Shown in pieces: positions 19,648 through 57,860 of a stretch of 64,000 bases of DNA. The position numbers and the translations under genes were made by a program. The notes beneath the pieces are model-generated. The model was not told where the DNA came from and did no database searches. It was given only the letters and a program-made list of their open reading frames with translations. The DNA is from Candidatus Magasanikiibacteriota bacterium (GTDB lineage Bacteria; Patescibacteriota; Patescibacteriia; Magasanikbacterales; GWA2-37-8). Each line of letters opens with the position of its first letter. The stretch's first letter is position 1. The stretch is taken from the NCBI GenBank assembly GCA_046590235.1, contig JBKJTY010000032.1:6834-70833 (forward strand), read 5' to 3'.

Positions 19648-21297
19648 ATGATCAATGACAAGCAAATCAAAGAGATGCTCGTCAAACAAAATTACGCGAC
19701 CGTCGAGGAAGTAGCTCAGGCGGAAAAAAAGGCAAAAGCATATCACACTACATTAGTAGAAATACTGATAAATGATGGGCTGATTACCAAAGAATTTCTT
19801 GCTCAAGCCACCGCTGAATTGTATCGCGTCAACTATCTTAACCTGGCCAATAATCCACCCGGATCAGACCAGGTTAAAAAAATCCCTGAAGAAATCGCTA
19901 AACGACTTCATATTGTTTTGTCTGCGGAAACCAAAGGTCATGTTACGCTCGCCACTGACAATCCCGAACAAAAAGATATCCTGATACAAGCTAAAAAACT
20001 TTTTCCCGGGCACAAAATCACCATTGTTTTTACTCCCACCGAACAAATTGAAGCGGCATTTACCCATTACCGCAAACCATTAGAAACACGCTTCAGCACG
20101 ATCATTGCGGCACAACGAAAGGTTGCCCCCGAAATCATCGAAGAAATTATTGCTGACGCGGTACTATTTCGAGCTTCCGATATCCACTTTGAACCCCAAG
20201 CTAAATTGGTTGAGGTTCGTTTTCGTGTTGATGGCGTCTTACGTGAAGCAGGGAATATTCCTAAAGAATACTACAGTAATGTTGTTAACCGCGTAAAAGT
20301 GCTCACTCATTTGCGAATTGATGAACACACCAATCCGCAGGATGGTGCGATGCATTACGAAAAAAATGATCATCGCATTGACCTGCGCGTTTCGATTGTA
20401 CCCGTGTTAGACGGCGAAAAAATTGTCATGCGTTTACTTGGTTCGTACCTTAAAACATTTAACCTGCATGATATTGGATTGTCGACCACCAACGAAGCCA
20501 TGCTTGTAGCAGCGGCAAACAAACCGTTTGGGATGATTCTCGTCGTTGGTCCGACTGGTTCAGGCAAGACGACCACGCTCTATGGCTTGCTTAAAGTTCT
20601 TAACAGTCCAGATCTTAATATCACTACCATCGAAGATCCTGTTGAATATAAGATGGTTGGTGTTAACCAGATCCAGGTTAACTCTGCCACCGATCTCACC
20701 TTTGCTCGCGGCTTGCGATCTATCGTCCGCCAAGATCCTGATATTATTCTTGTTGGTGAGATTCGCGACGAAGAAACTGCCGAGATTGCGGTCAATGCCG
20801 CGCTTACTGGCCATCTTTTATTTTCTACGTTTCATGCTAATGATGCCGCAACAGCTATCCCCCGCTTGCTGGACATGGGTGTTGAACCATTTTTATTGGC
20901 GTCGACTATGGAGCTTATTGTGGCCCAACGTTTGGTACGACGCATCTGTGAACAATGCCGTTACAGCGTCTCTCTGACACCCGCAGCGCTCGCTAAACGC
21001 TTTCCAACAGTTGGCCAATACTTCAAAAAAAGAACTATTACTATTTGTGAGAACAAAGGTTGCGATGCCTGCTTACACACCGGATATATCGGCCAGGTTG
21101 CCTTATTCGAAATGATTGAAATGACACCGGATTTAAAAACACTCATTCTCACCAACCCTTCAACTAAACAGATTTGGGATCTCGCCAAACAACATGGGTC
21201 AAAGTATCTTTTTGAAGATGGTATTGAAAAAGTTGAAAGCGGACTAACTTCACTCGATGAGTTACTACGCATCGCTATTCCACCAGCTCGCACCTAA
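19648..21297 (+). CDS. pilB: Type IV pilus assembly ATPase PilB/GspE family
   Basis: Walker A GPTGSGKTTT, Asp/His boxes, tetracysteine motif CEQC...CDAC. Confidence 0.9.
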   Translation: MINDKQIKEMLVKQNYATVEEVAQAEKKAKAYHTTLVEILINDGLITKEFLAQATAELYRVNYLNLANNPPGSDQVKKIPEEIAKRLHIVLSAETKGHVTLATDNPEQKDILIQAKKLFPGHKITIVFTPTEQIEAAFTHYRKPLETRFSTIIAAQRKVAPEIIEEIIADAVLFRASDIHFEPQAKLVEVRFRVDGVLREAGNIPKEYYSNVVNRVKVLTHLRIDEHTNPQDGAMHYEKNDHRIDLRVSIVPVLDGEKIVMRLLGSYLKTFNLHDIGLSTTNEAMLVAAANKPFGMILVVGPTGSGKTTTLYGLLKVLNSPDLNITTIEDPVEYKMVGVNQIQVNSATDLTFARGLRSIVRQDPDIILVGEIRDEETAEIAVNAALTGHLLFSTFHANDAATAIPRLLDMGVEPFLLASTMELIVAQRLVRRICEQCRYSVSLTPAALAKRFPTVGQYFKKRTITICENKGCDACLHTGYIGQVALFEMIEMTPDLKTLILTNPSTKQIWDLAKQHGSKYLFEDGIEKVESGLTSLDELLRIAIPPART

Positions 21298-21306
21298 ACG
21301 ATTCTT

Positions 21307-22410
21307 ATGACGGTCGCTACACACTTACCGGACAAAAAAAGAAAGCGCCCTCAGCTTGTTTTTGGTTTAGGAAAAGAAAAAGATTATATTATTGAAAATT
21401 TAAGCCTGCTTATCGGTGCTGGTTTAGACGTGCTAACTGCGCTGACCCTGCTCAAATCTGATATCCGCTCCAGCGCCATGCGCCATGCGCTTGATGGCAT
21501 CATTAACGATATTGATAACGGATTATCTCTCTCTGAGGCGCTCGAAGACAGCGGCTTATTTCCATTATACATGGTTACAGTCATCAGAATTGGTGAAGGA
21601 AGCGGTAGGCTAGAAGAAAATCTTAAAGTGGTTGCGCTTCAAGACGAACGGGACAGATCTTTCCGCTCTCAAGTCCGTTCAGCCATGATGTATCCACTTT
21701 TTGTTTTTTCATTCACACTTATTATCGGTATTGGCATTGCCTGGTTTATTCTTCCGCGTCTAGCCACCGTCTTTGGCGGCCTTCATCTTAAATTGCCTTG
21801 GATTACCCGAGCGCTAATGGGTTTGGGTCAATGGCTCGGAATACACGGAGCTACAGCAGTTCCCTTGCTACTCCTGGCTAGCATGACCATTTTTTATTTT
21901 GCTTTCTTTTTTTCTCCAACTAAATTTATTGGCCAATGGTTCCTATTCCGGGTCCCTGGAATTAAAAAATTACTTCAAGAGTTGGAACTCTCCCGTTTCG
22001 GATATCTGCTCGGTACATTATTAAATGCTGGCATCCCAATCACAACTGCTGTTAATTCTCTAGTCCAAGCATCTTCTTTCCATAGTTATCGTAAACTGTA
22101 TACTCATTTGCAAGTGCAGCTTGAAGAAGGTAATTCAGTACAAAAAAGTCTCGCATCGTATCCACACAGTACTCGTCTCATCCCTTCACCGGTGCAGGGT
22201 GTGATTGCTGCCGGCGAACAGTCGGGTACCATGGCCACAGCACTCCTCAGACTGGGCCAAAACTTTTCTGCGAAGACTGAAGCGACAGCTAAAAATTTAA
22301 CAACACTTCTCGAACCGCTACTCTTGATTATTGTCTGGCTCGGGGTAATGGGTGTCGCGTTGGCTGTCTTTCTGCCTATTTATAACCTGGTTGGAGGACT
22401 TGATCAGTAA
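21307..22410 (+). CDS. pilC: Type IV pilus platform protein PilC/GspF family
   Basis: 367 aa polytopic membrane protein with duplicated GspF-like domains directly after pilB. Confidence 0.85.
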   Translation: MTVATHLPDKKRKRPQLVFGLGKEKDYIIENLSLLIGAGLDVLTALTLLKSDIRSSAMRHALDGIINDIDNGLSLSEALEDSGLFPLYMVTVIRIGEGSGRLEENLKVVALQDERDRSFRSQVRSAMMYPLFVFSFTLIIGIGIAWFILPRLATVFGGLHLKLPWITRALMGLGQWLGIHGATAVPLLLLASMTIFYFAFFFSPTKFIGQWFLFRVPGIKKLLQELELSRFGYLLGTLLNAGIPITTAVNSLVQASSFHSYRKLYTHLQVQLEEGNSVQKSLASYPHSTRLIPSPVQGVIAAGEQSGTMATALLRLGQNFSAKTEATAKNLTTLLEPLLLIIVWLGVMGVALAVFLPIYNLVGGLDQ

Positions 22411-22497
22411 CATATCGTTATAGAAAGACCGCAGGCTAAACGTATCCAGAAAGCCGCTCCAACCCCAACCTCAACACCGACTACAACTACCAAAAAT

Positions 22498-22959
22498 ATG
22501 TTTAACCAAAAGAGTAACCTACTGTATCAAGCTGGTTTTACCTTAGTTGAGATAGTTTTAACACTAGCAATTATATCGACTGTAGCCTTGATTTCCATGC
22601 CTATTTATTGGCAACTCAAGCCCGCCAACGATCTCGATACGACACTATCACTGGTTGTTCACAATTTGCGCCGCGCGCAAACACTGGCTATGGGAGTTGA
22701 GCATGATAGCACTTGGAGTGCCACTCTTGAACCCGGCACTATGACGCTGTACGCTACAGATACTAATGGGAATCGATTAGTAAATTACGACGAAGTTTTT
22801 CCTTTACCTGCTGCCATTACTTTTACCGGACAAAGCACTTTCGTTTTTGCCAAGCTAACTGGTAAGCCGGTTACCGCTGGTACTATCGTTCTTACCAACC
22901 CGCACAATAATGTTAGTAAAACTATTACAATTAACCAAGTTGGGGTGGCTAGTTACTAG
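22498..22959 (+). CDS. Prepilin-type N-terminal cleavage/methylation domain protein (pilin/pseudopilin)
   Basis: leader MFNQKSNLLYQAG then FTLVEIVLTLAII class III signal. Confidence 0.8.
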   Translation: MFNQKSNLLYQAGFTLVEIVLTLAIISTVALISMPIYWQLKPANDLDTTLSLVVHNLRRAQTLAMGVEHDSTWSATLEPGTMTLYATDTNGNRLVNYDEVFPLPAAITFTGQSTFVFAKLTGKPVTAGTIVLTNPHNNVSKTITINQVGVASY

Positions 22960-23371
22960 CACTACCAAGCAGTCCGGTTTTAGCTTGGTGGAAGCGCTGC
23001 TTTCCATTGCTCTTTTTGCATTGTTAATTGGCACCTTAATCAGTGGGGCGTTGTATGGTCAGCAGTCTGTTATTCTAGCCGGTAATCGCGAACGTGCCAC
23101 CGCGCTCGCTGAAGAAGGTCTGGAAGCCGTACGTAACTTACGTGATACGAGCTACACCAACTTGACTCCCGGTACCTACGGACTAGCAAATGATAACCAA
23201 AGATGGATATTGCAACCTTCACCTGATCAAACGGGAATTTTTGCGCGAAGCATTACTATTACATCCGTTGCAGAGGGTACAGCAGAAGTTGTTGCAACCG
23301 TCACTTGGCAATGGGTTACTACCCACAGTAATTCAGTCGTGCTTACTACCTATTTAACCAATTGGAAATGA
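22910..23371 (+). CDS. Prepilin-type protein (start uncertain: ATG 22910 or TTG 22940)
   Basis: KQSG then FSLVEALLSIALFALLIG prepilin signal; 5' end overlaps previous gene by ~50 nt. Confidence 0.7.
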   Translation: MLVKLLQLTKLGWLVTSTTKQSGFSLVEALLSIALFALLIGTLISGALYGQQSVILAGNRERATALAEEGLEAVRNLRDTSYTNLTPGTYGLANDNQRWILQPSPDQTGIFARSITITSVAEGTAEVVATVTWQWVTTHSNSVVLTTYLTNWK

Positions 23372-23883
23372 AACTTTTTCCTACTAGACAATCGATAAGT
23401 GGTTTCACACTCACAGAGGTGATTCTTTACATTTCTTTAGCGGCATTTACTTTGTTAGCCACTTCTACGCTATTTTTTTATGTGATTCAAGCCAAGATTA
23501 AACAACAAGCTATCTCTGAAGTTGAAGAACAAGGCAATACACTGCTTAGGGTTATCACACAAACAATTCGAAACGCACAAAACTTTGACAACCTGAGTCC
23601 AGGCACTACTAGCGCTACCCAGCTTTCAGTTACTTCGCCTTCAGGTACTTCGACGGTTTTTACTTTAGTTAATGGAACGTTGAATAGTAGGGAAAATGGC
23701 GGTTCGGACGTCGCATTGACATCTCCTCGAGTAATAATGACTAATCTTTTGTTTGAAAATTTGGGACAACCGACCACTATTGGCGCTATTCGAATCCGTT
23801 TCACACTAAGCACGGTTAATCAATCTGCTATACAAGAATTTTCTTATCAACAAACGTTTTATGGATCTGCTACAACCCGCTAA
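23362..23883 (+). CDS. Prepilin-type protein (minor pilin-like)
   Basis: SISG then FTLTEVILYISLAAF N-terminal signal. Confidence 0.7.
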   Translation: MEMKLFPTRQSISGFTLTEVILYISLAAFTLLATSTLFFYVIQAKIKQQAISEVEEQGNTLLRVITQTIRNAQNFDNLSPGTTSATQLSVTSPSGTSTVFTLVNGTLNSRENGGSDVALTSPRVIMTNLLFENLGQPTTIGAIRIRFTLSTVNQSAIQEFSYQQTFYGSATTR

Positions 23884-24277
23884 TAGCACCACCGGTTTTG
23901 CCACGCTCACCAACGTGATTATTTTGGGTGCAGTTGGGGCAACTATTACAACCACACTCTTAATTCTTGGGACGGGTGCTACGCGCAATAGTGGCATCGT
24001 CGAGCAGTCTGGTAAAGCTCGATCGCTGGCAAACGCTTGCGCGGAAACTGCCCTACTTCATATCAGACAAGATGGTTTGTTATCAGGAACCGATACCATT
24101 ACCTTGGGACAAGGTACCTGTACATATGCAATAACAGCAGCATCCGAGATTGCAGGAGAAGTATCTGCTACCGGACTTGTCGGAACTTTGAAACGAAAAA
24201 TACATATCGATCTCACTACAAATACCAGCACTCAAGCTATCAGCATTGGTTCCTGGCAAGAGGTAGCTGATTTTTAA
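23861..24277 (+). CDS. Pilus-associated protein with hydrophobic N-terminus (pilin-like)
   Basis: TTG then FATLTNVIILGAVGATITTTLLIL; last gene of the pilB-pilC-pilin run. Confidence 0.55.
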   Translation: MDLLQPANSTTGFATLTNVIILGAVGATITTTLLILGTGATRNSGIVEQSGKARSLANACAETALLHIRQDGLLSGTDTITLGQGTCTYAITAASEIAGEVSATGLVGTLKRKIHIDLTTNTSTQAISIGSWQEVADF

Positions 24278-24299
24278 AAGCACCCGGTTGGGTGCTTTT
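24276..24299. terminator. Bidirectional terminator between convergent pilin genes
   Basis: aaaagcacccggttgggtgctttt. Confidence 0.7.
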
Positions 24300-24321
24300 A
24301 AGTAGAAGTGTTACATTTTGA

Positions 24322-24807
24322 TTATCTAGTAATACGTATGGTTGCATCCAATTCAGCGTACGGCGCAGAAACGGTTACTCGATTGTTGCTTGTCAAAAAT
24401 ATCGTGTAACAGGCACTGTTACTGTCACTGTCCAAACACAGCTGTGCTGGATCATTCGGTATGCTTGTTAAGTATTTTTCGTTAAGCGTTAAATATGGAC
24501 CTAAATTAATCAAATTAGTACAATTAGGCTGCAAACTCGTTCTGCAAATCTCTGTTTCATTACTGGTAATTGTTGCTGGCAACACACCGTCATTATCAAT
24601 GGCGTATTGGTAGACTGCGTTCGCAATCGTATTAACGTCAGCGCGGCGCTGAGCGTTTCTTGCGCTAGCCAACTGCTTACTTGGGTTAATCGCAAAAATA
24701 ACGATGCCTGCCAAAATTGCGATCATCGCAACTACGAGAAGGATTTCAAGCAGAGTAAATCCAGCTTGTGTTTGTTTATTTTTTTGGAAAAGTCTGGTGA
24801 ATTTCAT
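24322..24807 (-). CDS. Type IV pilin (PilA-like, probable major pilin)
   Basis: MKFTRLFQKNKQTQAG then FTLLEILLVVAMIAILAGIV class III signal; two Cys pairs in C-terminal region; start moved to ATG 24807. Confidence 0.8.
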   Translation of the reverse strand: MKFTRLFQKNKQTQAGFTLLEILLVVAMIAILAGIVIFAINPSKQLASARNAQRRADVNTIANAVYQYAIDNDGVLPATITSNETEICRTSLQPNCTNLINLGPYLTLNEKYLTSIPNDPAQLCLDSDSNSACYTIFLTSNNRVTVSAPYAELDATIRITR

Positions 24808-24878
24808 ATACGAATTATAATGAAAGCAGTATACCACTCTTCATTATTTCTTACAATCTACTATTCGCAGCTAGCCTA

Positions 24879-26894
24879 TTATAGCTCATTTATATCTTTC
24901 AGAAAACTACCCGGACGACGTTTAGGCATTGGCGCATCTTCATCTACATATTGAATATCAGCACGGGGATCATTAAGGACAGTTGGATTGCTAAGCAATG
25001 AATGGTCTTCAATTAACTGATAATCGATTTCATCGAGGAACATACTTGGACCTGAAAGAAAATCACCATAAGCACCGCCCGCCATTGGATAAGTGAAATA
25101 TAGTAATTCTTTTGCGCGAGTGATTGCCACGTAAAATAATCGGCGCTCTTCTTCAATACCATTGTCTTCTTTCATAGCCCGATCGCTCGGGAATGAACCA
25201 CTTGAAAGATTTAAAATGAAAACCGCTTTCCATTCTAAACCTTTGGCTTGGTGAATGGTAGAGAGAACGACTCTGGCCTTACTGTCTTCTACGCTTGTGC
25301 TACGATGTGACTCTTGCAGTGTAGCGTCGCCGAGGAACGCGTCGAGGCTGTCATATTTTTCAGCGAATAATGCCAACTGCTTAATATCATTCAAACGATC
25401 TCGGCTGTCGACAAATTCACTTTCCAAATACTGTCGGTAATTTGATTGAGCCAGAACATCGATCAATGCGGTCGGCGAACGTACTGGTTCGCGCATCATA
25501 GCATCAAAGATTTTTAAAAAGTTATTCCATCCAGTCTGAGCTTTATTACCGAGCACTGTCCCGGCACGATAAACATCTTCCAAATTTTTTATTTCTTTCA
25601 TTTGTTCTATAACTTTTTGTGCTGCTGCTGGACCTACACCTTCTTCATGCATAAGCACACGAAGCCAAGCCGCAGTGTCGGCAAGGTTAGTCATCAATCG
25701 TAAATAACAAAGAATATCTTTGACATGAGCACGCTCAAAAAAGCGAACACCACCACGGTAATCATACGCGATACCGCGACGGACAAGCTCGACTTCAAGC
25801 ATCTGTGAATGGTGCGACGCACGGAACAACACGGCAATTTCGTTGGCCGGCGTCCCCTTTTCAATCAAATCAGCAATTTTTGCAGCAACAAAATTACCTT
25901 CGGATTGCTGGTCGAGTTGCGGATAGAGATATGGTTTTTCACTGGTTTTGATTGCCTTTAATGTTTTTTGAAACTGTGAACGATTGTTAGAAATAACATT
26001 ATTCGCGACATCGAGAATCTCTTTGCCAGATCGGTAATTGGTTTCCAGTTTAAAAATCTTGGTCCCAGGAAACGCATTCGGGAACTGTAAAATATTTTGA
26101 ATATCAGCCGCGCGGAACGAATAAATACTTTGCGCATCATCCCCTACCACCAAAATATTTTTGTTAATGGAGGCGAATTGATTGATAATAGACGCTTGGA
26201 TTTTGTTAGTATCCTGATACTCATCCACGAGCACATAATAAAATTGGCTCGCGTATTTTTCATGCACTTGCGGCTGGCGTAATAGCACCAATAGATTAAC
26301 AAGCAGGTCATCGAAGTCCATGGCGTTGGCTTCTTTTTTCTTTACTACATAGCCAGCGGCGATTTGTTTAATATCTTCAGCAAACGGAAACCATTGGAAA
26401 AATTTATTTTCTAAAACTGAATCAATCGTTGTTTCAGCATTGCGGGCATAGCTGATAACACTCGACACCGCGCTAGCGGAAGGAAATTTTTTCGCACCTT
26501 TAGCTTCAGGCTTCACTTCTTTAATGCAAAGCTTCAAAAGCGATTCACTATCGTCACTGTCGAGTACGGTAAAATTATTACCGTATCCCAAAAGTGGTGC
26601 GTAGATGCGTAAAATACGAAATGCAATATGATGGAACGTGCCTGACCACGGCAAAGCTGTTTGCATACCAGTGATTTGTTGCACGCGATGACGCATTTCT
26701 CCAGCAGCTTTGTTGGTAAATGTAACCAATAAAATATTTTCTGGTTTAACACCCTGCTCTAATAGAAAGGCAACACGAAAAGTAATGGTTCTTGTCTTAC
26801 CACTCCCCGCTCCAGCCAAAACTAAGCATGGACCGTCACCACCTTGCACAGCAGCAAGCTGTTCTTCGTTAAGTTCTTTTACAAAATCGATCAT
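24879..26894 (-). CDS. uvrD: ATP-dependent DNA helicase UvrD/PcrA family
   Basis: LVLAGAGSGKTRTIT Walker A, 671 aa, UvrD motifs throughout. Confidence 0.9.
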   Translation of the reverse strand: MIDFVKELNEEQLAAVQGGDGPCLVLAGAGSGKTRTITFRVAFLLEQGVKPENILLVTFTNKAAGEMRHRVQQITGMQTALPWSGTFHHIAFRILRIYAPLLGYGNNFTVLDSDDSESLLKLCIKEVKPEAKGAKKFPSASAVSSVISYARNAETTIDSVLENKFFQWFPFAEDIKQIAAGYVVKKKEANAMDFDDLLVNLLVLLRQPQVHEKYASQFYYVLVDEYQDTNKIQASIINQFASINKNILVVGDDAQSIYSFRAADIQNILQFPNAFPGTKIFKLETNYRSGKEILDVANNVISNNRSQFQKTLKAIKTSEKPYLYPQLDQQSEGNFVAAKIADLIEKGTPANEIAVLFRASHHSQMLEVELVRRGIAYDYRGGVRFFERAHVKDILCYLRLMTNLADTAAWLRVLMHEEGVGPAAAQKVIEQMKEIKNLEDVYRAGTVLGNKAQTGWNNFLKIFDAMMREPVRSPTALIDVLAQSNYRQYLESEFVDSRDRLNDIKQLALFAEKYDSLDAFLGDATLQESHRSTSVEDSKARVVLSTIHQAKGLEWKAVFILNLSSGSFPSDRAMKEDNGIEEERRLFYVAITRAKELLYFTYPMAGGAYGDFLSGPSMFLDEIDYQLIEDHSLLSNPTVLNDPRADIQYVDEDAPMPKRRPGSFLKDINEL

Positions 26895-26984
26895 AAATAG
26901 AAAAAATCTGTTTCATTATAACAGTCATGCTGTGCGCGGTCAAAGGCACATCTATTGTCATACCAAGCATATGTGTCATTCCCG

Positions 26985-27028
26985 CGAAGGCCATGCCTAC
27001 CGGCAGGCAGGCGGGAATCCAGGACACC
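26985..27028. repeat. Palindromic repeat element (GTCATTCCCGCG...GCGGGAATCCAGG with internal insert)
   Basis: gtcattcccgcgaagg-ccatgcctaccggcaggcag-gcgggaatccaggacacc; second copy at 55845-55876; degenerate half-copy gtcattctgaggaatc at 27041-27056. Confidence 0.7.
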
Positions 27029-27123
27029 ATAATGTCATTCTGAGGAATCGAAGAATCTTCCTATTATTCAATGTTACTTCACTATCGTTCTTCTCTTTTC
27101 TTGCTATTGCAAAGTGCGCATGT

Positions 27124-27208
27124 CACTTTCTTTATAACTAAAGGAAGGTAACCAAAGAAAGTTTCAGGGGAAAGTAAAACTCGCCCCGGCTCAAACAATT
27201 ACTTTCCC
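27124..27208. repeat. Two consecutive long hairpins adjacent to the repeat element
   Basis: aactttcttt...aaagaaagtt (27124-27166) and ggaaagtaa...ttactttcc (27170-27208). Confidence 0.4.
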
Positions 27209-27285
27209 CCGAACCCCACCTACTCGGAAGGAATTTTATAGTTACGCTTGAAAAATCCCTCCTCATATGGTAGCATTGCGCCGAT

Positions 27286-28455
27286 ATGTCATTTTTTAAA
27301 CTCCTCAAAAAAGATTCAAAAACCCACGCCCGCCTTGGCCAGATCACTACTGACCACGGTGTCATTGAGACGCCAATATTTATGCCGGTGGGTACACAAG
27401 CAACCGTGAAGACGCTCGATAGCGCTGACATGCACCAGATGAACGCCCAGATTATTTTAGGTAACAATTATCATTTACATTTACGTCCGGGTGAAGACTT
27501 GATTGCCGCAGCTGGTGGCTTACATAAATTCATGAACTGGAACAAACCGATTTTGACTGACAGCGGTGGCTTCCAGGTGTTTAGTTTGGGTTTACAAAAA
27601 GAGCAGCGGATAAATGGTAAGAATACCAACACAACTAAACTTGTTAAAATTACCGAAGAAGGCGTCGCCTTCCAAAGTCATATTGATGGCTCACGACATA
27701 TTTTCACTCCGGAATCCGCCATTTTGTGCGAACATAAAATTGGCGCTGATATCATCATGGCATTTGATGAGTGCACACCAGACTCCGCAACTCCAGAATA
27801 CACTCGCGAAGCCATGGAACGCACACACCGTTGGGCTGTCCGCAGCTTGGACGCGCATAAAGAAAATACCAAGTACCATGGTTATAACCAATTTATTTTC
27901 GGCATTATTCAAGGCGCTAATTACAAAGAATTACGTGAAGAATCCGCCCGCTACATTAGTAGTTTAGATTTTGATGGCATTGCGATTGGTGGTGAATCCA
28001 TTGGCTATAATATGGAAGCGACCGCCAACATCCTTGATTGGGTACATCCAATTATTCCAGAAGATAAACCACGATACTCCATGGGTGTTGGTCTAAATCC
28101 AACTGATCTTATTATTGCTGTTGAGCATGGTGTCGATATGTTTGATTGTGTTGCCCCAACTCGCCTCGCTCGCCACGGCATGCTTTTCACTTTTGATAGA
28201 ACAAATAAACATCGTCTCAACATTAAGAATGCAAAATGCGCCACCGATTTTAGTCCGATTGATAGCGCTTGTGATTGTCACACCTGTAAAAATTATTCCC
28301 GCAGCTACCTTCACCACTTATTTGATGCTGACGAGATGACCGGTATGCGCCTGGCTTCAATTCACAATCTCCGCTTTATGCTTAAACTGATGGAAAATGT
28401 ACGAGCTGCAATAAAGGAAGATCGCTTCACTGAATTTAAGGAACAATGGATGTAA
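27286..28455 (+). CDS. tgt: Queuine tRNA-ribosyltransferase (tRNA-guanine transglycosylase)
   Basis: LTDSGGFQVFSL, zinc site CDCHTC, 389 aa. Confidence 0.9.
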   Translation: MSFFKLLKKDSKTHARLGQITTDHGVIETPIFMPVGTQATVKTLDSADMHQMNAQIILGNNYHLHLRPGEDLIAAAGGLHKFMNWNKPILTDSGGFQVFSLGLQKEQRINGKNTNTTKLVKITEEGVAFQSHIDGSRHIFTPESAILCEHKIGADIIMAFDECTPDSATPEYTREAMERTHRWAVRSLDAHKENTKYHGYNQFIFGIIQGANYKELREESARYISSLDFDGIAIGGESIGYNMEATANILDWVHPIIPEDKPRYSMGVGLNPTDLIIAVEHGVDMFDCVAPTRLARHGMLFTFDRTNKHRLNIKNAKCATDFSPIDSACDCHTCKNYSRSYLHHLFDADEMTGMRLASIHNLRFMLKLMENVRAAIKEDRFTEFKEQWM

Positions 28456-54941: not shown

Positions 54942-57860
54942 CTATTTTACTAAGCTCACTTTTAACTTTTGTCCATCAACATCAAGTTCTACCCCATCAT
55001 TCTGTTTCTCAACTAATTCTTTAGCTGAGACATTCTTTAGTAGTTCGACTACTGATTCTTTAATAAGAGCTTTGATGTCTGCACTTGAGGTTTCGTATTC
55101 GATTACGACCTTGTCTTCGATAGTTAATTTTTGTTCTTTGCGTAATTGATTGATAGTACGAATAATTTCGCGCAATGTACCCTCTTTTTTAAGTTCAGGT
55201 GTGATTTCTGTATTGAGGGCGACAGTGAACTGATTTTCTGTCTTTGTTTTCCATTGTGTACCAGAAGGATTCTTTGCTGCATTCACAATGACAGCAGACT
55301 TCACATTCAACTCATCGGCGATAATCGTTAGCATATCTTTATGCAACTCACCACCAACATCAGACCAAACAGTTTCAATTGCACTGATCGTAAATTCACC
55401 GAGTGCTTGGCGCACCTTCATACCTGTTTCAGCACGAAGGGCTAAGCCGTATTCAACTAGTTTACGCACAGTTCCCATCTGCTGCAGTAATGCTGTATCA
55501 AGTGCTTTCTTGTTAACCGTCGGCCAAACTTCTAGATGCACACTCTTGTTTTCGCCTTCTAATGTTTGGAAGATTTTTTCTGCAATGAAAGGTGTAAACG
55601 GCGCCATAACTTTGGATAGCGTCAATAAAACTTCACGAAGCGTACCGAGCGCTGCCTGCTTGTCGTCAGCGTCATCACCTTTGAAACGATCACGTGAACG
55701 GCGGACATACCATTGTGATAATTCGGTGACAAATTCAAGGATCGGACGCGGAGCTTGAGCTAATTCGTAGCGCTCCATATGCTCAGTTACATCGCTCACG
55801 AGTGTCTCGAGCTTTGCCATGACCCATCGATCAAGCACATGGGTGTCATTCCCGCGCAGGCGGGAATCCAGGATACCATCACCGGCAAACATGCTGTAAA
55901 ATTCGAGCACGTTGGTCGTAGTGTTGATCAATTTACTGAAAACTTCACGCACACCCGCCTCAGTAAAATTTAGAGCTTCAGCTGCCACGACCGGTGAAGA
56001 CATCAAGTAAAAACGTAGCGCGTCAGCACCATACTTTTCGAGTACCATGTTTGGATCTGGATAGTTCTGCAACTTTTTACTCATCTTTTTACCATCTTCA
56101 GCGAGTACGATACCATTCACAATGACATTCTCAAACGCCACTTTTCCAAATAGAGCGGTGCCTAGTACATGTAGGTAATAAAACCACGCACGTGTCTGGT
56201 CCTGACCTTCCGCGATGAACTGCGCTGGAAAAGTATCATCAAATTTTTTCTTATTTTCGTATGGGTAGTGCACCTGCGCGTACGGCATGGAACCGGAATC
56301 AAACCAGGTATCAAGCACATCTGGAATACGCTTCATCGTGCCACCGCATTTACATGGGAACATGACTGCATCCATAACATGTTTATGCAGGTCGGTGACT
56401 TTTTGTCCGCTTACTTTTTCAAGTTCAGCAGCTGAACCAAATGCTTCAAACTTTTTACACTCACCGCACTTCCACACCGGCATCACACTCGCCCAAAAAC
56501 GCTGGCGAGAGATAGACCAGTCGCGCGCACCCTCGAGCCATTTACCAAAACGACCTTCTTTAATATGCTCCGGTGACCAATTAATGTTTTTAGCAAGCTT
56601 GAGAGCTTTATCTTTAACTTCAGTCACTTTTACAAACCATGACGATGTTGCATAGTTCAAAAGCGGGGTGTCACAACGCCAGCAATGTGGGTAACTATGT
56701 ACGAGATTTTGCTTCAAGAAAAATAAATTGTGTTCTTGAAGATAGCGGATAATATTAATATCTGTTGCAAGGCGCACCTTATCGTCATCTGAACGTGGCT
56801 TCACTTCCTGCCCAGCAAAATCAGTCACTTCCGGCTTGAAGCGACCATCCATACCAACATGTTGCACGAGCGGAACCTGTTCACGCTTACCGACTTTAAA
56901 GTCGTCTTCACCGAACGCTGGAGCGATATGCACGACACCAGTACCGTCAGTCGTTGTAACGAAATCACCAGCTACGATACGGAAGGCGTTTTTAGTATCT
57001 TTGTAATATGGGAAGAGTGGATTGTATGATTTACCAACTAAGTCTTTAGTTTTTACAAACTTCGTCTCCCCTGTTAATTTCATTCGAGCAAAAGCAGTTT
57101 TTTCAAGGATATATGTTTCCGTTTTTCCCGCTTCAGTGGTGGCGGTGTATGAAACATATTCCAAATCTGGACCAACCGCGAGCGCAACGTTGCCTGGCAA
57201 CGTCCAAGGAGTGGTTGTCCAAGCAAGCACAAACGTACCTGGCTGTTCCACGAGCTCAAATTTCACAAACACCGAAATATCTTTTACATCCTTATACCCT
57301 TCGCTCACCTCTTGTTGCGACAGCGTCGTTTCGCAACGCGGACAAATATGCATGGTGCGATAATCTTCGTAGACCAACCCCTTGTCCCACAGCTGCTTGA
57401 ATACCCACCAGACCGATTCCATATACTCAATATCCATGGTCTTGTACGCATTTTTCATATCCACCCAGCGACCGAGACGGCGAATGGTTTTTTCCCAATC
57501 CTCAACATAGCCGAGCACTTTCGAGCGACAGAGTTCATTAAATTTTGCCACACCCATGGCTTCAATTTCTTTTTTTGTTTTAGTACCGAGTTCTTTTTCA
57601 ACGATATTCTCGATAGGTAGCCCGTGACAATCCCAGCCCCATTTGCGCTCCACCTGGTACCCACGCATTGTGAAATAGCGCGGCACAACATCTTTCATAG
57701 CCGAGCCGACAAGGTGACCATAGTGAGGAGAGCCGGTCGCAAATGGCGGACCATCATAAAAGACATACGGCTTGCCTTTACGGGCGACGGATTTTTCGAA
57801 AGTTTGGTCTTTATCCCAGAACTCGAGGATTTTTTGTTCTTCAAGGTTGGCGTTATACAT
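54942..57860 (-). CDS. ileS: Isoleucine--tRNA ligase (class I)
   Basis: GPPFATGSPHYGHLV HIGH-region, KMSKKL KMSKS motif, editing domain; start moved to MYNANLEEQKILEFW (ATG 57860); upstream ORF extension is TTG-initiated leader. Confidence 0.9.
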   Translation of the reverse strand: MYNANLEEQKILEFWDKDQTFEKSVARKGKPYVFYDGPPFATGSPHYGHLVGSAMKDVVPRYFTMRGYQVERKWGWDCHGLPIENIVEKELGTKTKKEIEAMGVAKFNELCRSKVLGYVEDWEKTIRRLGRWVDMKNAYKTMDIEYMESVWWVFKQLWDKGLVYEDYRTMHICPRCETTLSQQEVSEGYKDVKDISVFVKFELVEQPGTFVLAWTTTPWTLPGNVALAVGPDLEYVSYTATTEAGKTETYILEKTAFARMKLTGETKFVKTKDLVGKSYNPLFPYYKDTKNAFRIVAGDFVTTTDGTGVVHIAPAFGEDDFKVGKREQVPLVQHVGMDGRFKPEVTDFAGQEVKPRSDDDKVRLATDINIIRYLQEHNLFFLKQNLVHSYPHCWRCDTPLLNYATSSWFVKVTEVKDKALKLAKNINWSPEHIKEGRFGKWLEGARDWSISRQRFWASVMPVWKCGECKKFEAFGSAAELEKVSGQKVTDLHKHVMDAVMFPCKCGGTMKRIPDVLDTWFDSGSMPYAQVHYPYENKKKFDDTFPAQFIAEGQDQTRAWFYYLHVLGTALFGKVAFENVIVNGIVLAEDGKKMSKKLQNYPDPNMVLEKYGADALRFYLMSSPVVAAEALNFTEAGVREVFSKLINTTTNVLEFYSMFAGDGILDSRLRGNDTHVLDRWVMAKLETLVSDVTEHMERYELAQAPRPILEFVTELSQWYVRRSRDRFKGDDADDKQAALGTLREVLLTLSKVMAPFTPFIAEKIFQTLEGENKSVHLEVWPTVNKKALDTALLQQMGTVRKLVEYGLALRAETGMKVRQALGEFTISAIETVWSDVGGELHKDMLTIIADELNVKSAVIVNAAKNPSGTQWKTKTENQFTVALNTEITPELKKEGTLREIIRTINQLRKEQKLTIEDKVVIEYETSSADIKALIKESVVELLKNVSAKELVEKQNDGVELDVDGQKLKVSLVK
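55845..55876. repeat. Palindromic repeat copy inserted in-frame within ileS
   Basis: gtcattcccgcgcaggcgggaatccaggatac; encodes ILDSRLRGNDT in IleRS frame and VIPAQAGIQ on the other strand. Confidence 0.7.

What the first reader, a model, noticed from the sequence alone, without database searches (positions are those of the whole stretch)
26975..27060. Palindromic repeat element GTCATTCCCGCG(N)GCGGGAATCCAGG of the VIPAKAGIQ/LDSRFRGND peptide type
The element has ATTCCC...GGGAAT inverted termini around a variable loop, here expanded by a nested palindrome tgcctaccggcaggca. An adjacent collapsed half-copy gtcattctgaggaatc is also present. Translation gives the VIPAKAGIQ / LDSRFRGND-type peptides that I recall as spurious hypothetical proteins from short palindromic repeats in several intracellular and symbiotic bacteria. 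This is from memory, not a search. A second copy lies inside ileS (see 55845). ATTCCC-N8-GGGAAT also resembles the Neisseria dRS3 core, but the genomic context argues against that identity.
Basis: partly seen in the sequence, partly recalled or inferred. Interest (0 to 1): 0.55.

Follow-up and report, generated by a model that had tools for sequence, protein, structure and literature searches.

The report
NTS/dRS3-type hairpin repeat copies
These are copies of a known short hairpin-forming DNA repeat, the "NTS" that contains the Neisseria dRS3 core and is cut by small Ssn nucleases; here it sits in a Candidatus Magasanikbacteria genome, once between genes and once translated in frame inside the essential ileS gene.

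Summary
Copy B (55844-55872) matches the published 28-nt Neisseria Transformation Sequence (NTS, which contains dRS3) at 27 of 28 positions. Copy A (26974-27023) has identical arms and flanks, but its loop is expanded to 25 nt by a nested hairpin.

The family is already described (Chenal et al. 2025, PMC11893778). It is an oriented hairpin repeat that small GIY-YIG Ssn nucleases bind and cut only as single-stranded DNA, and it is found in many phyla.

No ssn gene lies in the 64-kb window. Whether the nuclease system operates in this genome is therefore untested.

The 16-nt "half copy" A' fits a sister family (GTCATTCTGAGCGAAGCGAAGAATC) better than a collapsed NTS.

The part I could not find in the literature concerns ileS. 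Copy B is read in frame (LDSRLRGND) in an inter-domain linker of IleRS. Five of 120 Magasanikbacteria IleRS orthologues carry NTS-type inserts in this same linker. They differ in orientation and subtype, and their nearest relatives lack them. Similar in-frame copies occur in Tgt, GatB, a probable P-type ATPase, UvrA and TruB elsewhere. This resembles the Rickettsia palindromic elements.

The parts
26974..27023 (+). Copy A, a loop-expanded NTS-type hairpin repeat. Left arm ATTCCCGC is at 26978-26985 and right arm GCGGGAAT at 27011-27018. The 25-nt loop holds a nested hairpin (TGCCT/AGGCA, 26994-27009). The orientation-giving flanks are (T)GTC at the 5' end and CCAGG at the 3' end.
   Evidence: Sequence. 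Pattern statistics. ssDNA fold of -17 kcal/mol, z = -4.1. Loop-expanded copies with nested hairpins recur in other genomes (L075, L103, L105, L117 and others).
26973..27030 (+). Extended unit of copy A. The outer stem GTGTC (26973-26977) pairs with GACAC (23-27 of 270xx) across a CCAG internal loop. The 3' flank GGACACCAT is shared with copy B and with the ileS copy in L253.
   Evidence: This flank is not part of the cross-phylum consensus, so it appears to be specific to this lineage.
27034..27049 (+). Copy A', GTCATTCTGAGGAATC. It is probably an internally deleted copy of the sister family GTCATTCTGAGCGAAGCGAAGAATC. It does not form a stable hairpin.
   Evidence: The sister family has 12 copies in 2 Mb of NTS-bearing loci against about 1 expected. 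No mini-forms of this kind occur in 829 kb of loci.
26957..26964 (+). GTCATACC, a possible orphan 5' arm 18 nt upstream of copy A. This is a weak, post-hoc observation.
   Evidence: In other genomes, GTCAT[TA]CC arms lacking the full strict pattern lie within 60 nt upstream of full copies 17 times, against about 0.7 expected from their background density. Some of these may be the 5' arms of variant full copies.
55844..55872 (+). Copy B, a canonical NTS (tGTCATTCCCGCGCAGGCGGGAATCCAGG). It has an 8-bp stem and a 4-nt loop, contains an exact dRS3 core, and matches the SRM search motif. It lies antisense to ileS and is translated in frame as (I)LDSRLRGND(T).
   Evidence: The consensus comes from PMC11893778.
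55872..55879 (+). 3' flank GATACCAT of copy B. Together with 55841-55846 it forms an outer stem. It matches the flank of copy A.
54942..57860 (-). ileS (type-2 IleRS, 972 aa from the ATG at 57860). The copy B insert corresponds to residues 663-673. This lies between the catalytic domain (PF00133, residues 10-630) and the anticodon-binding domain (PF08264, residues 677-819).
24879..26894 (-). UvrD/PcrA-type helicase gene. Its start is 81 nt from copy A. A promoter-like site (26943 to 26915, 11 of 12 matches, TG-extended) lies between the gene and copy A.
27286..28455 (+). tgt (tRNA-guanine transglycosylase), transcribed divergently from the helicase. Copy A lies in the 391-bp region between the two genes.

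Best explanation
Identity (shown, about 0.9). The finding consists of copies of the NTS / Ssn-related-motif family of short, oriented, hairpin-forming DNA repeats. This is the 28-nt element that contains the Neisseria dRS3 core. The genome is a Candidatus Magasanikbacteria (Patescibacteria/CPR) genome.

Published mechanism (Chenal et al. 2025). One strand of the element folds into a GC-rich hairpin. The GTC on its 5' side and the C just after its 3' arm give it an orientation. Small single-domain GIY-YIG nucleases (Ssn, cd10448) bind this hairpin and cut a few nucleotides upstream of it. They do so only when the DNA is single-stranded. In Neisseria this restricts incoming transforming DNA. ssn genes flanked by NTS copies look like mobile cassettes.

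Inference for this window.
- Copies A and B are passive descendants of such an element. They carry a lineage-specific longer flank (CCAGGAYACC).
- Copy A sits in a hypervariable intergenic spot, upstream of two divergent promoters. It has acquired a second hairpin in its loop.
- Copy B landed in, and is tolerated in, an inter-domain linker of IleRS, where it is translated as LDSRLRGND.
- I put the chance that they are still substrates of an Ssn nuclease encoded elsewhere in this genome at about 0.4-0.5. No ssn gene lies in the 64 kb available.
- How the repeat copies itself is not known for any member of the family.
For: - Copy B equals the NTS consensus at 27 of 28 positions, contains dRS3, and matches the SRM search motif. 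That motif gives 1 hit in the window against 0.14 in random sequence.
- Copy A has identical arms and flanks.
- Exact-arm copies occur in at least 120 genome stretches from at least 17 phylum-level groups, including Neisseria and Magasanikiibacteriota, and in at least 120 IMG/VR contigs.
- 155 of the first 176 copies have a 4-nt loop. About 1 such match would be expected by chance in the whole collection.
- Positions not specified in the search pattern are conserved: Y at -1, and C, A, G/T at +1 to +3 at 88%, 88% and 83%.
- Stem variants are mostly compensatory double changes. At stem position 3, C-G occurs 22 times. At position 7, A-T occurs 32 times against 4 broken pairs. The hairpin itself is therefore what is conserved.
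- Five of 240 loci carry a GIY-YIG (PF01541) ssn homologue, each less than 60 nt from an NTS. L043 shows the NTS-ssn-NTS arrangement.
- A and B fold as ssDNA hairpins.
- The experimental mechanism is taken from PMC11893778.
Against: - No ssn or other Ssn-like GIY-YIG ORF lies in the window. tblastn gave a best E of 0.57, and a profile HMM found nothing at E <= 10.
- Only 2-3 copies occur in 64 kb, so high copy number in this genome is unproven.
- Copy A's 25-nt loop falls outside the published NTS and SRM definitions. Cleavage of such a variant has never been tested.
- No target-site duplication or clean empty site could be defined for either copy.
- The rest of the contig or genome could not be retrieved.
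Confidence: 0.8

Rival explanations
1. The copies are REP/REPIN-type elements. These are mobilised by a RAYT (IS200/IS605-like Y1 transposase) that recognises hairpins in single-stranded DNA, not by an Ssn nuclease.
For: The general look is the same: short extragenic hairpins, often in inverted doublets 40-110 bp apart in other genomes. Examples are the head-to-head doublets in L124 and L252. Chenal et al. themselves draw this analogy.
Against: In these loci the gene found next to the repeat is a GIY-YIG ssn, in 5 of 240 loci and always within 60 nt. The published genome-wide association is also with ssn. I did not run a RAYT search, so absence of a RAYT is not shown.
Confidence: 0.07
2. The hairpins serve as attachment or target sites for an IS110/Piv-family recombinase. 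In Neisseria, dRS3 is the integration site of the Nf filamentous prophages. They would matter here mainly as landing pads for mobile DNA.
For: dRS3 is described as the target of a specific phage recombinase in Neisseria (PMC11893778 introduction). Copy A lies at a spot where close relatives carry different, unrelated ~240-aa genes: L127 compared with L128 and L129. That is the kind of variable site expected around integration targets.
Against: No insertion is present at either copy in the window. No recombinase was looked for or seen near them. Copy B lies inside an essential gene, where an integration would be lethal. This role would add to the Ssn explanation and would not replace it.
Confidence: 0.08
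3. Copy A is a regulatory or terminator hairpin acting on RNA for the helicase or tgt genes. Copy B is an unrelated coincidence.
For: It is a stable GC-rich hairpin in an intergenic region.
Against: - Copy A lies upstream of both divergent promoter-like sites, so it is probably not transcribed. No T-tract follows it, and the terminator scan does not call it.
- Rfam finds nothing, even at E <= 1.
- The same sequence with the same flanks lies inside ileS and in hundreds of unrelated contexts.
Confidence: 0.03
4. The copies are chance palindromes or assembly artefacts.
For: None beyond the small number of copies in the window.
Against: Shuffle tests reject chance. The two copies share flanks outside the palindrome. 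In-frame copies in the same IleRS linker appear in five independent assemblies from different sources (NCBI, ENA, JGI, Logan), with the reading frame preserved in each.
Confidence: 0.01

Closest known systems
Neisseria Transformation Sequence (NTS), which contains the dRS3 repeat, and its cognate Ssn nucleases (Chenal et al. 2025, Nat Commun 16:2388, PMC11893778)
   Same: Copy B matches the 28-nt consensus at 27 of 28 positions. It has the same 8-bp stem, a loop allowed by the consensus (GCAG), the same 5' GTC and the same 3' C-C-A-G. It forms an ssDNA hairpin. Copy A has the same arms and flanks.
   Different: - The host is a CPR bacterium. Patescibacteria are not mentioned in the main text of the paper.
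- No ssn gene lies within 64 kb.
- Copy A's loop is 25 nt with a nested hairpin.
- Both copies carry an extra outer stem and flank (GGAYACCAT).
- Copy B is inside an essential gene and is translated. In N. meningitidis only 2% of NTS copies are intragenic.
Ssn-related motifs (SRM) of Wolbachia, Rickettsia, Rhizorhabdus, Sphingomonas, Povalibacter and Devosia (same paper)
   Same: This is the same superfamily of GTC-prefixed hairpins. Copy B satisfies the SRM search motif. Povalibacter, Devosia and Sphingomonas loci were recovered with the exact NTS pattern.
   Different: Copy A (loop longer than 5 nt), copy A', and the sister family GTCATTCTGAGCGAAGCGAAGAATC do not satisfy the SRM search motif.
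Rickettsia palindromic elements (RPE). This comparison rests on my own knowledge of Ogata et al. 2000 and 2002 and was not checked here.
   Same: Both are palindromic repeats inserted in frame into conserved protein-coding genes, at positions where the protein tolerates extra residues. Copy B and the inserts in IleRS, Tgt, GatB, the probable P-type ATPase, UvrA and TruB behave this way.
   Different: RPEs are about 100-150 bp long, unrelated in sequence, and were described as peculiar to Rickettsia. The inserts here are about 28-60 bp and occur across phyla.
REP / REPIN elements with RAYT transposases, and BIME/NIME mosaic clusters
   Same: These are also short hairpin repeats that often occur as inverted doublets and cluster with other hairpins in intergenic regions. 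Here A, A', H3 and H4 all lie within 240 bp.
   Different: The associated protein is a different class of enzyme: a GIY-YIG nuclease, not a Y1 HUH transposase. REP sequences are usually species-specific, whereas this core is the same across phyla.

Membership tests
NTS (Chenal et al. 2025) | Match to CGTCATTCCCGCGMAVGCGGGAATCYRG with at most one mismatch | tested here: met
   Copy B (55844-55871) has one mismatch, T for C at position 1. Copy A fails as written because 21 extra nucleotides sit in the loop. All 24 arm and flank positions of copy A match.
NTS (Chenal et al. 2025) | Contains the dRS3 core ATTCCC-N8-GGGAAT | tested here: met
   Copy B has ATTCCCGCGCAGGCGGGAAT at 55848-55867. Copy A has N29 in place of N8.
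NTS (Chenal et al. 2025) | Forms a hairpin as single-stranded DNA | tested here: met
   A folds at -17 kcal/mol (z = -4.1) and B at -10.9 kcal/mol (z = -3.7). Family-wide compensatory stem changes support the hairpin.
NTS (Chenal et al. 2025) | Non-palindromic flanks that give orientation: three nucleotides upstream needed for cleavage, and a C just after the palindrome needed for binding | tested here: met
   Both copies have GTC immediately 5' of ATTCCC and a C immediately 3' of GGGAAT.
NTS (Chenal et al. 2025) | Many copies in the genome | tested here: inconclusive
   The window has two clear copies and one degenerate copy in 64 kb. The rest of the genome could not be retrieved.
NTS (Chenal et al. 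2025) | A cognate ssn (cd10448 GIY-YIG) gene in the same genome, often flanked by the repeat | tested here: inconclusive
   No such gene lies in the window. The genome outside the window is unavailable. In the paper, 81% of genomes with more than 200 SRM copies have ssn, so absence is also possible.
NTS (Chenal et al. 2025) | Bound and cut by Ssn only as ssDNA | not testable with these tools
   This is a biochemical assay.
SRM search motif | HGTCWY-N(0-2)-YYVSBRH-N(0-5)-WNVSBRG-N(0-2)-RNCYNB | tested here: met
   Copy B matches. It is the only hit in the window, against a random mean of 0.14. Copies A and A' do not match.
REP/REPIN-RAYT | A linked RAYT (Y1 transposase) gene and species-specific REP sequences | not tested
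   No RAYT search was run. The core is shared across at least 17 phylum-level groups, unlike typical REPs. The linked gene found is ssn.
Rickettsia palindromic elements | A 100-150 bp palindromic unit of the RPE sequence families | tested here: not met
   The units here are 28-58 nt and NTS-like in sequence. Only the behaviour of in-frame insertion is shared.
MITE | Terminal inverted repeats plus a target-site duplication | tested here: not met
   Comparison of the filled site with the nearest empty site in ileS shows no duplication. It shows replacement of linker sequence with a net gain of 12 nt.
Intrinsic terminator | A GC-rich hairpin followed by a T-run at the 3' end of a gene | tested here: not met
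   There is no T-run. Copy A lies between two gene starts, copy B lies inside a gene, and the terminator scan calls neither.

The most novel reading that the evidence does not exclude
NTS-type hairpins and their sister families act as cross-phylum "protein-coding palindromes". In Patescibacteria and elsewhere they repeatedly insert in frame into permissive loops of essential proteins. The same IleRS inter-domain linker was hit at least 3-5 separate times, in both orientations. Two loops of Tgt, and sites in GatB, a probable P-type ATPase, UvrA and TruB, are also hit. This points to an active and still undescribed copying mechanism, possibly driven by the GIY-YIG Ssn nuclease acting on single-stranded DNA. 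It would generalise the Rickettsia RPE phenomenon to much of the bacterial world.
Probability: 0.3. Interest if true: 0.65.

Novelty: new member of a known kind. Interest (0 to 1): 0.4.

Why it matters
For the element itself, the main value is annotation. These 28-50 nt hairpins should be labelled NTS/SRM repeats and not left to produce spurious VIPAKAGIQ- or LDSRLRGND-type hypothetical proteins. Their presence suggests that the Ssn-hairpin system extends to CPR bacteria, which are thought (my own knowledge) to depend on DNA uptake.

The more interesting point is that the repeat is translated inside essential genes and has entered the same IleRS linker several times independently. If that holds up, it gives natural "before and after" pairs for working out how the repeat copies itself, which is unknown. 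It also marks loops in conserved enzymes that tolerate insertions.

Tried and rejected
- **Rfam:** nothing at gathering thresholds over the whole window, and nothing at E <= 1 over 26850-27330. No tRNA genes were found.
- **ssn in the window:** a remembered consensus, two real Ssn proteins and a five-sequence profile HMM all found nothing.
- **Extending the contig beyond the window:** the exact IleRS ORF product is not on record. Proteins near the window ends occur only on 2.7-3 kb Logan contigs. The cluster look-up gave no accession.
- **An empty site for copy A:** the two closest relatives each carry a different, unrelated ~240-aa gene between the helicase and tgt. Homology to the window starts only about 30 nt before tgt.
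- **Target-site duplication at copy B:** none. The linker is too diverged from the 89.6%-identical orthologue.
- **Metagenome scan for the lineage-specific flank** (GCGGGAATCCAGGAYACCAT): only two hits, neither from this organism.
- **Orientation of the cleavable strand against local GC skew:** no bias in 168 genomic and 177 viral-contig copies. The window itself has uniformly negative skew.
- **Mini-forms like A'** (GTCATTC-N2-8-GGAATC): none next to NTS copies in 829 kb of loci. This led me to the sister-family explanation.
- **Literature:** the peptide strings are in no paper of the held library. No paper links palindromic in-frame insertions with Patescibacteria. The supplementary tables of the Ssn paper are not held.
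- **NCBIfam:** no model matches the Ssn proteins. Pfam GIY-YIG does.

Full report
**What is in the sequence.**
- The region 26975-27023 reads GTCATTCCCGC, then 25 nt, then GCGGGAATCCAGG. The 25-nt loop contains the small palindrome TGCCTACCGGCAGGCA.
- Ten bases further on lies GTCATTCTGAGGAATC (27034-27049).
- A compact version, GTCATTCCCGCGCAGGCGGGAATCCAGG, lies at 55845-55872.
- ATTCCC-N-GGGAAT occurs twice against 0.07 expected. GTCATTC-N-GGAATC occurs three times against 0.05 expected. No shuffle reached the observed count in either test.
- As single-stranded DNA, copy A folds at -17 kcal/mol (z = -4.1) and copy B at -10.9 kcal/mol (z = -3.7). The 16-nt piece A' does not fold better than shuffled sequence.
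- A and B also share sequence outside the palindrome: TGTC upstream and CCAGGAYACCAT downstream. The folds pair GTGTC with GACAC across a CCAG internal loop. The two copies therefore descend from one unit that is longer than the palindrome.

**Context.**
- The best hits of IleRS and Tgt are Candidatus Magasanikbacteria / Patescibacteria proteins. The window has about 43% G+C, whereas copy B is 68% G+C by direct count.
- Copy A lies in the 391-bp gap between a UvrD/PcrA-type helicase gene (24879-26894, minus strand) and tgt (27286-28455, plus strand). The two genes are transcribed divergently.
- A strong promoter-like site for the helicase (26943 to 26915, 11 of 12 matches) lies between copy A and that gene. 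A weaker one for tgt lies at 27248-27276. The terminator scan does not call copy A, and no T-run follows it. Copy A is therefore most likely a DNA-level element and not an RNA signal. Rfam finds nothing.
- In the two closest relatives, this same gap holds a ~240-aa gene. The gene in L127 is unrelated to the gene in L128 and L129. The site is therefore hypervariable, and I could not define a clean empty site for copy A.

**What it is.**
- A full-text search for the sequence led to Chenal et al. 2025 (PMC11893778). They define the 28-nt Neisseria Transformation Sequence, CGTCATTCCCGCGMAVGCGGGAATCYRG. It contains the 20-bp dRS3 repeat, ATTCCC-N8-GGGAAT.
- They show that SsnA binds it and cuts just upstream of it, only when the DNA is single-stranded. 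SsnA is a 94-aa single-domain GIY-YIG nuclease (cd10448).
- The three bases before the palindrome matter for cutting. The C just after the palindrome matters for binding.
- In N. meningitidis the system lowers transformation by NTS-bearing DNA.
- Related "Ssn-related motifs" (SRM) flank ssn genes in many phyla.
- Copy B matches the NTS consensus at 27 of 28 positions. It contains an exact dRS3 core and is the only match to the SRM search motif in the window, against 0.14 expected.
- Copy A has the same arms and flanks but a 25-nt loop.

**Independent support from public sequence.**
The hosts include:
  - Pseudomonadota, Bacteroidota, Chloroflexota, Planctomycetota, Nitrospirota, Acidobacteriota and Verrucomicrobiota;
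  - Elusimicrobia, Gemmatimonadetes, Zixibacteria and Latescibacteria;
  - several Patescibacteria lineages, including Uhrbacteria and Magasanikiibacteriota;
  - a Nanoarchaeota MAG, Neisseria lactamica and N. dentiae.
- Of 176 copies, 155 have a 4-nt loop, mostly GAAA, GAAG or GCAG. For that spacing, about one chance match is expected in the whole 596-Gb collection.
- Positions I did not specify are conserved: C or T at -1 (97%), then C (88%), A (88%), G or T (83%) after the right arm.
- Variants of single stem pairs are overwhelmingly compensatory. This is what a structure-dependent recognition site predicts:
  - stem position 2: C-G 13 times against 2 broken pairs;
  - stem position 3: C-G 22 times;
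  - stem position 7: A-T 32 times against 4 broken pairs.
- Five of 240 loci contain an ssn homologue with a Pfam GIY-YIG match (E = 2.5e-13 and 2.7e-10 for the two I tested). Each lies within 60 nt of an NTS. L043 shows NTS-ssn-NTS.
- Loop-expanded copies with a nested hairpin, like copy A, recur in unrelated genomes: L075, L103, L105, L117, L063 and L085.
- The element also occurs in at least 120 IMG/VR contigs.

**What could not be shown for this genome.**
- No Ssn-like ORF lies in the 64 kb. tblastn gave a best E of 0.57, and the profile HMM found nothing at E <= 10.
- I could not reach the rest of the contig or genome.
- Whether these copies are live substrates of a resident nuclease or relics is therefore open.
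- The forward strand of both copies is on the strand with negative GC skew. Across 345 copies elsewhere there is no orientation bias against local skew, so I draw no conclusion from this.

**The ileS copy.**
- Copy B lies antisense in ileS and is read as ...FAGDG-ILDSRLRGND-THVLDRW....
- These are residues 663-673 of the 972-aa protein. They fall in the gap between the catalytic domain (PF00133, 10-630) and the anticodon-binding domain (PF08264, 677-819). This stretch varies in length among orthologues and aligns with gaps to solved IleRS structures.
- The closest orthologue is 89.6% identical over conserved columns and has a different, 4-residue-shorter linker with no element.
- Among 120 orthologues, five carry NTS-type peptides, and all five are in this linker. 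DNA confirms four of them besides the window:
  - L123 has a forward copy of the C-G stem subtype, GTCATCCCCGCGAAGGCGGGGATCCAG.
  - L124 and L252 have head-to-head doublets: an NTS plus a GTCATCCCCGA...TCGGGGATCC copy.
  - L253 has a forward copy with three substitutions in its left arm but the same CCAGGATACC flank as the window copies.
- Each carrier's nearest relatives (85-90% identical) lack the insert.
- L124 and L252 may share one ancestral event. Even so, there are at least three or four separate gains, in both orientations.
- Only one of the six reading frames of the element contains a stop (my translation of the consensus). This makes such survival plausible.
- The simplest reading is frequent insertion, filtered by what the protein tolerates. 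A true target preference for this site is not excluded.

**The same behaviour elsewhere.**
- In low-G+C genomes, exact NTS copies lie inside long ORFs whose products look like these proteins by eye. I did not run a domain search on these ORFs:
  - a P-type ATPase (L119, Magasanikiibacteriota);
  - GatB (L033, Saccharibacteria);
  - Tgt (L044, Parcubacteria; a doublet plus a half copy);
  - a DNA methyltransferase (L099).
- Copies also lie in UvrA (L087) and TruB (L102).
- Magasanikbacteria Tgt orthologues carry NTS and sister-family peptides in two loops.
- The paper reports only 2% of NTS copies inside genes in N. meningitidis. I found no paper that holds these peptide strings or describes such inserts in Patescibacteria.
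- From my own knowledge, the closest precedent is the Rickettsia palindromic elements.

**The short piece A'.** All 16 bases of GTCATTCTGAGGAATC are explained as the two ends of GTCATTCTGAGCGAAGCGAAGAATC. This sister repeat is present 12 times in 2 Mb of NTS-bearing loci, against about 1 expected. A collapsed NTS would leave TGAG unexplained. No comparable mini-forms occur near NTS copies elsewhere. I therefore read A' as an internally deleted sister-family copy, but with modest confidence.

**Verdict.** The element belongs to a family that is already described, both at the sequence level and biochemically. This is a new host lineage with a slightly longer unit and one loop-expanded copy. The recurrent, translated insertions in IleRS and other housekeeping proteins are the only part that goes beyond the literature I could search, and they deserve a systematic survey.

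Noticed in passing
window 27122-27209: Two more hairpins sit in the same intergenic region as copy A. H3 has GTC followed by 9-bp arms, ACTTTCTTT (27125-27133) and AAAGAAAGT (27154-27162). H4 has 11-bp arms, GGGGAAAGTAA (27167-27177) and TTACTTTCCCC (27199-27209). H3 has the GTC-stem-loop-stem layout of the repeat superfamily. The independent Logan contig L001 ends at about window position 27183, inside H4.
   Followed up: partly
L127 3339-4061; L128 3692-4426; window 26895-27285: The helicase-tgt gap is a variable site. Two close relatives each hold a different, unrelated ~240-aa gene of unknown function there, on opposite strands. The window holds only hairpin repeats.
   Followed up: partly
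P0170, P0183, P0189, P0232, P0205, P0226, P0195, P0237 (Tgt orthologues; alignment): Magasanikbacteria Tgt proteins carry 20-45-residue inserts in two loops. Their sequences look like translations of several palindromic repeat families, for example ...SSRAAKGGVANPQ...IASTSSRND, VISNEVRNL, VILSETKNP, CHPRESGDL and LDSRFHGND. P0195 appears to contain three different elements in a row.
   Followed up: partly
L014, L045, L197, L011, L064: A sister repeat, GTCATTCTGAGCGAAGCGAAGAATCT, co-occurs with NTS in Nitrospirales, Dehalococcoidia and a viral contig. It does not satisfy the published SRM search motif, so the superfamily is probably wider than that motif.
   Followed up: partly
L039, L069, L071, L115; counts: A bare 5' arm (GTCATTCCCGC) often sits 19-23 nt upstream of a full copy on the same strand. 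GTCAT[TA]CC arms lacking the full strict pattern are about 25-fold enriched within 60 nt upstream (17 observed against about 0.7 expected) and are rare downstream (2). Some may be the 5' arms of variant full copies. This may be a footprint of how the element is copied or cut.
   Followed up: partly
L099 (Nanoarchaeota MAG) 1511-1534: An exact NTS and a second related hairpin (peptide MDSCFRRND) lie in frame inside what looks by eye like a DNA methyltransferase ORF of a MAG labelled Nanoarchaeota. Either the family reaches DPANN archaea or the contig is misbinned.
   Followed up: no
L150, L146, L197 (IMG/VR contigs): Some viral or prophage contigs carry dense arrays of NTS copies. The scan counted 13 matches for L150; the 8 positions printed fall within about 1.1 kb. 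L146 and L197 have 5 copies each.
   Followed up: no
window 19648-24837: A run of ORFs upstream of the helicase includes at least one with a type IV pilin-like N-terminus (FTLLEILLVVAMIAILAGIV, 24322-24837, minus strand). This may be relevant because the Ssn-NTS system acts on DNA taken up by competence machinery in Neisseria.
   Followed up: no
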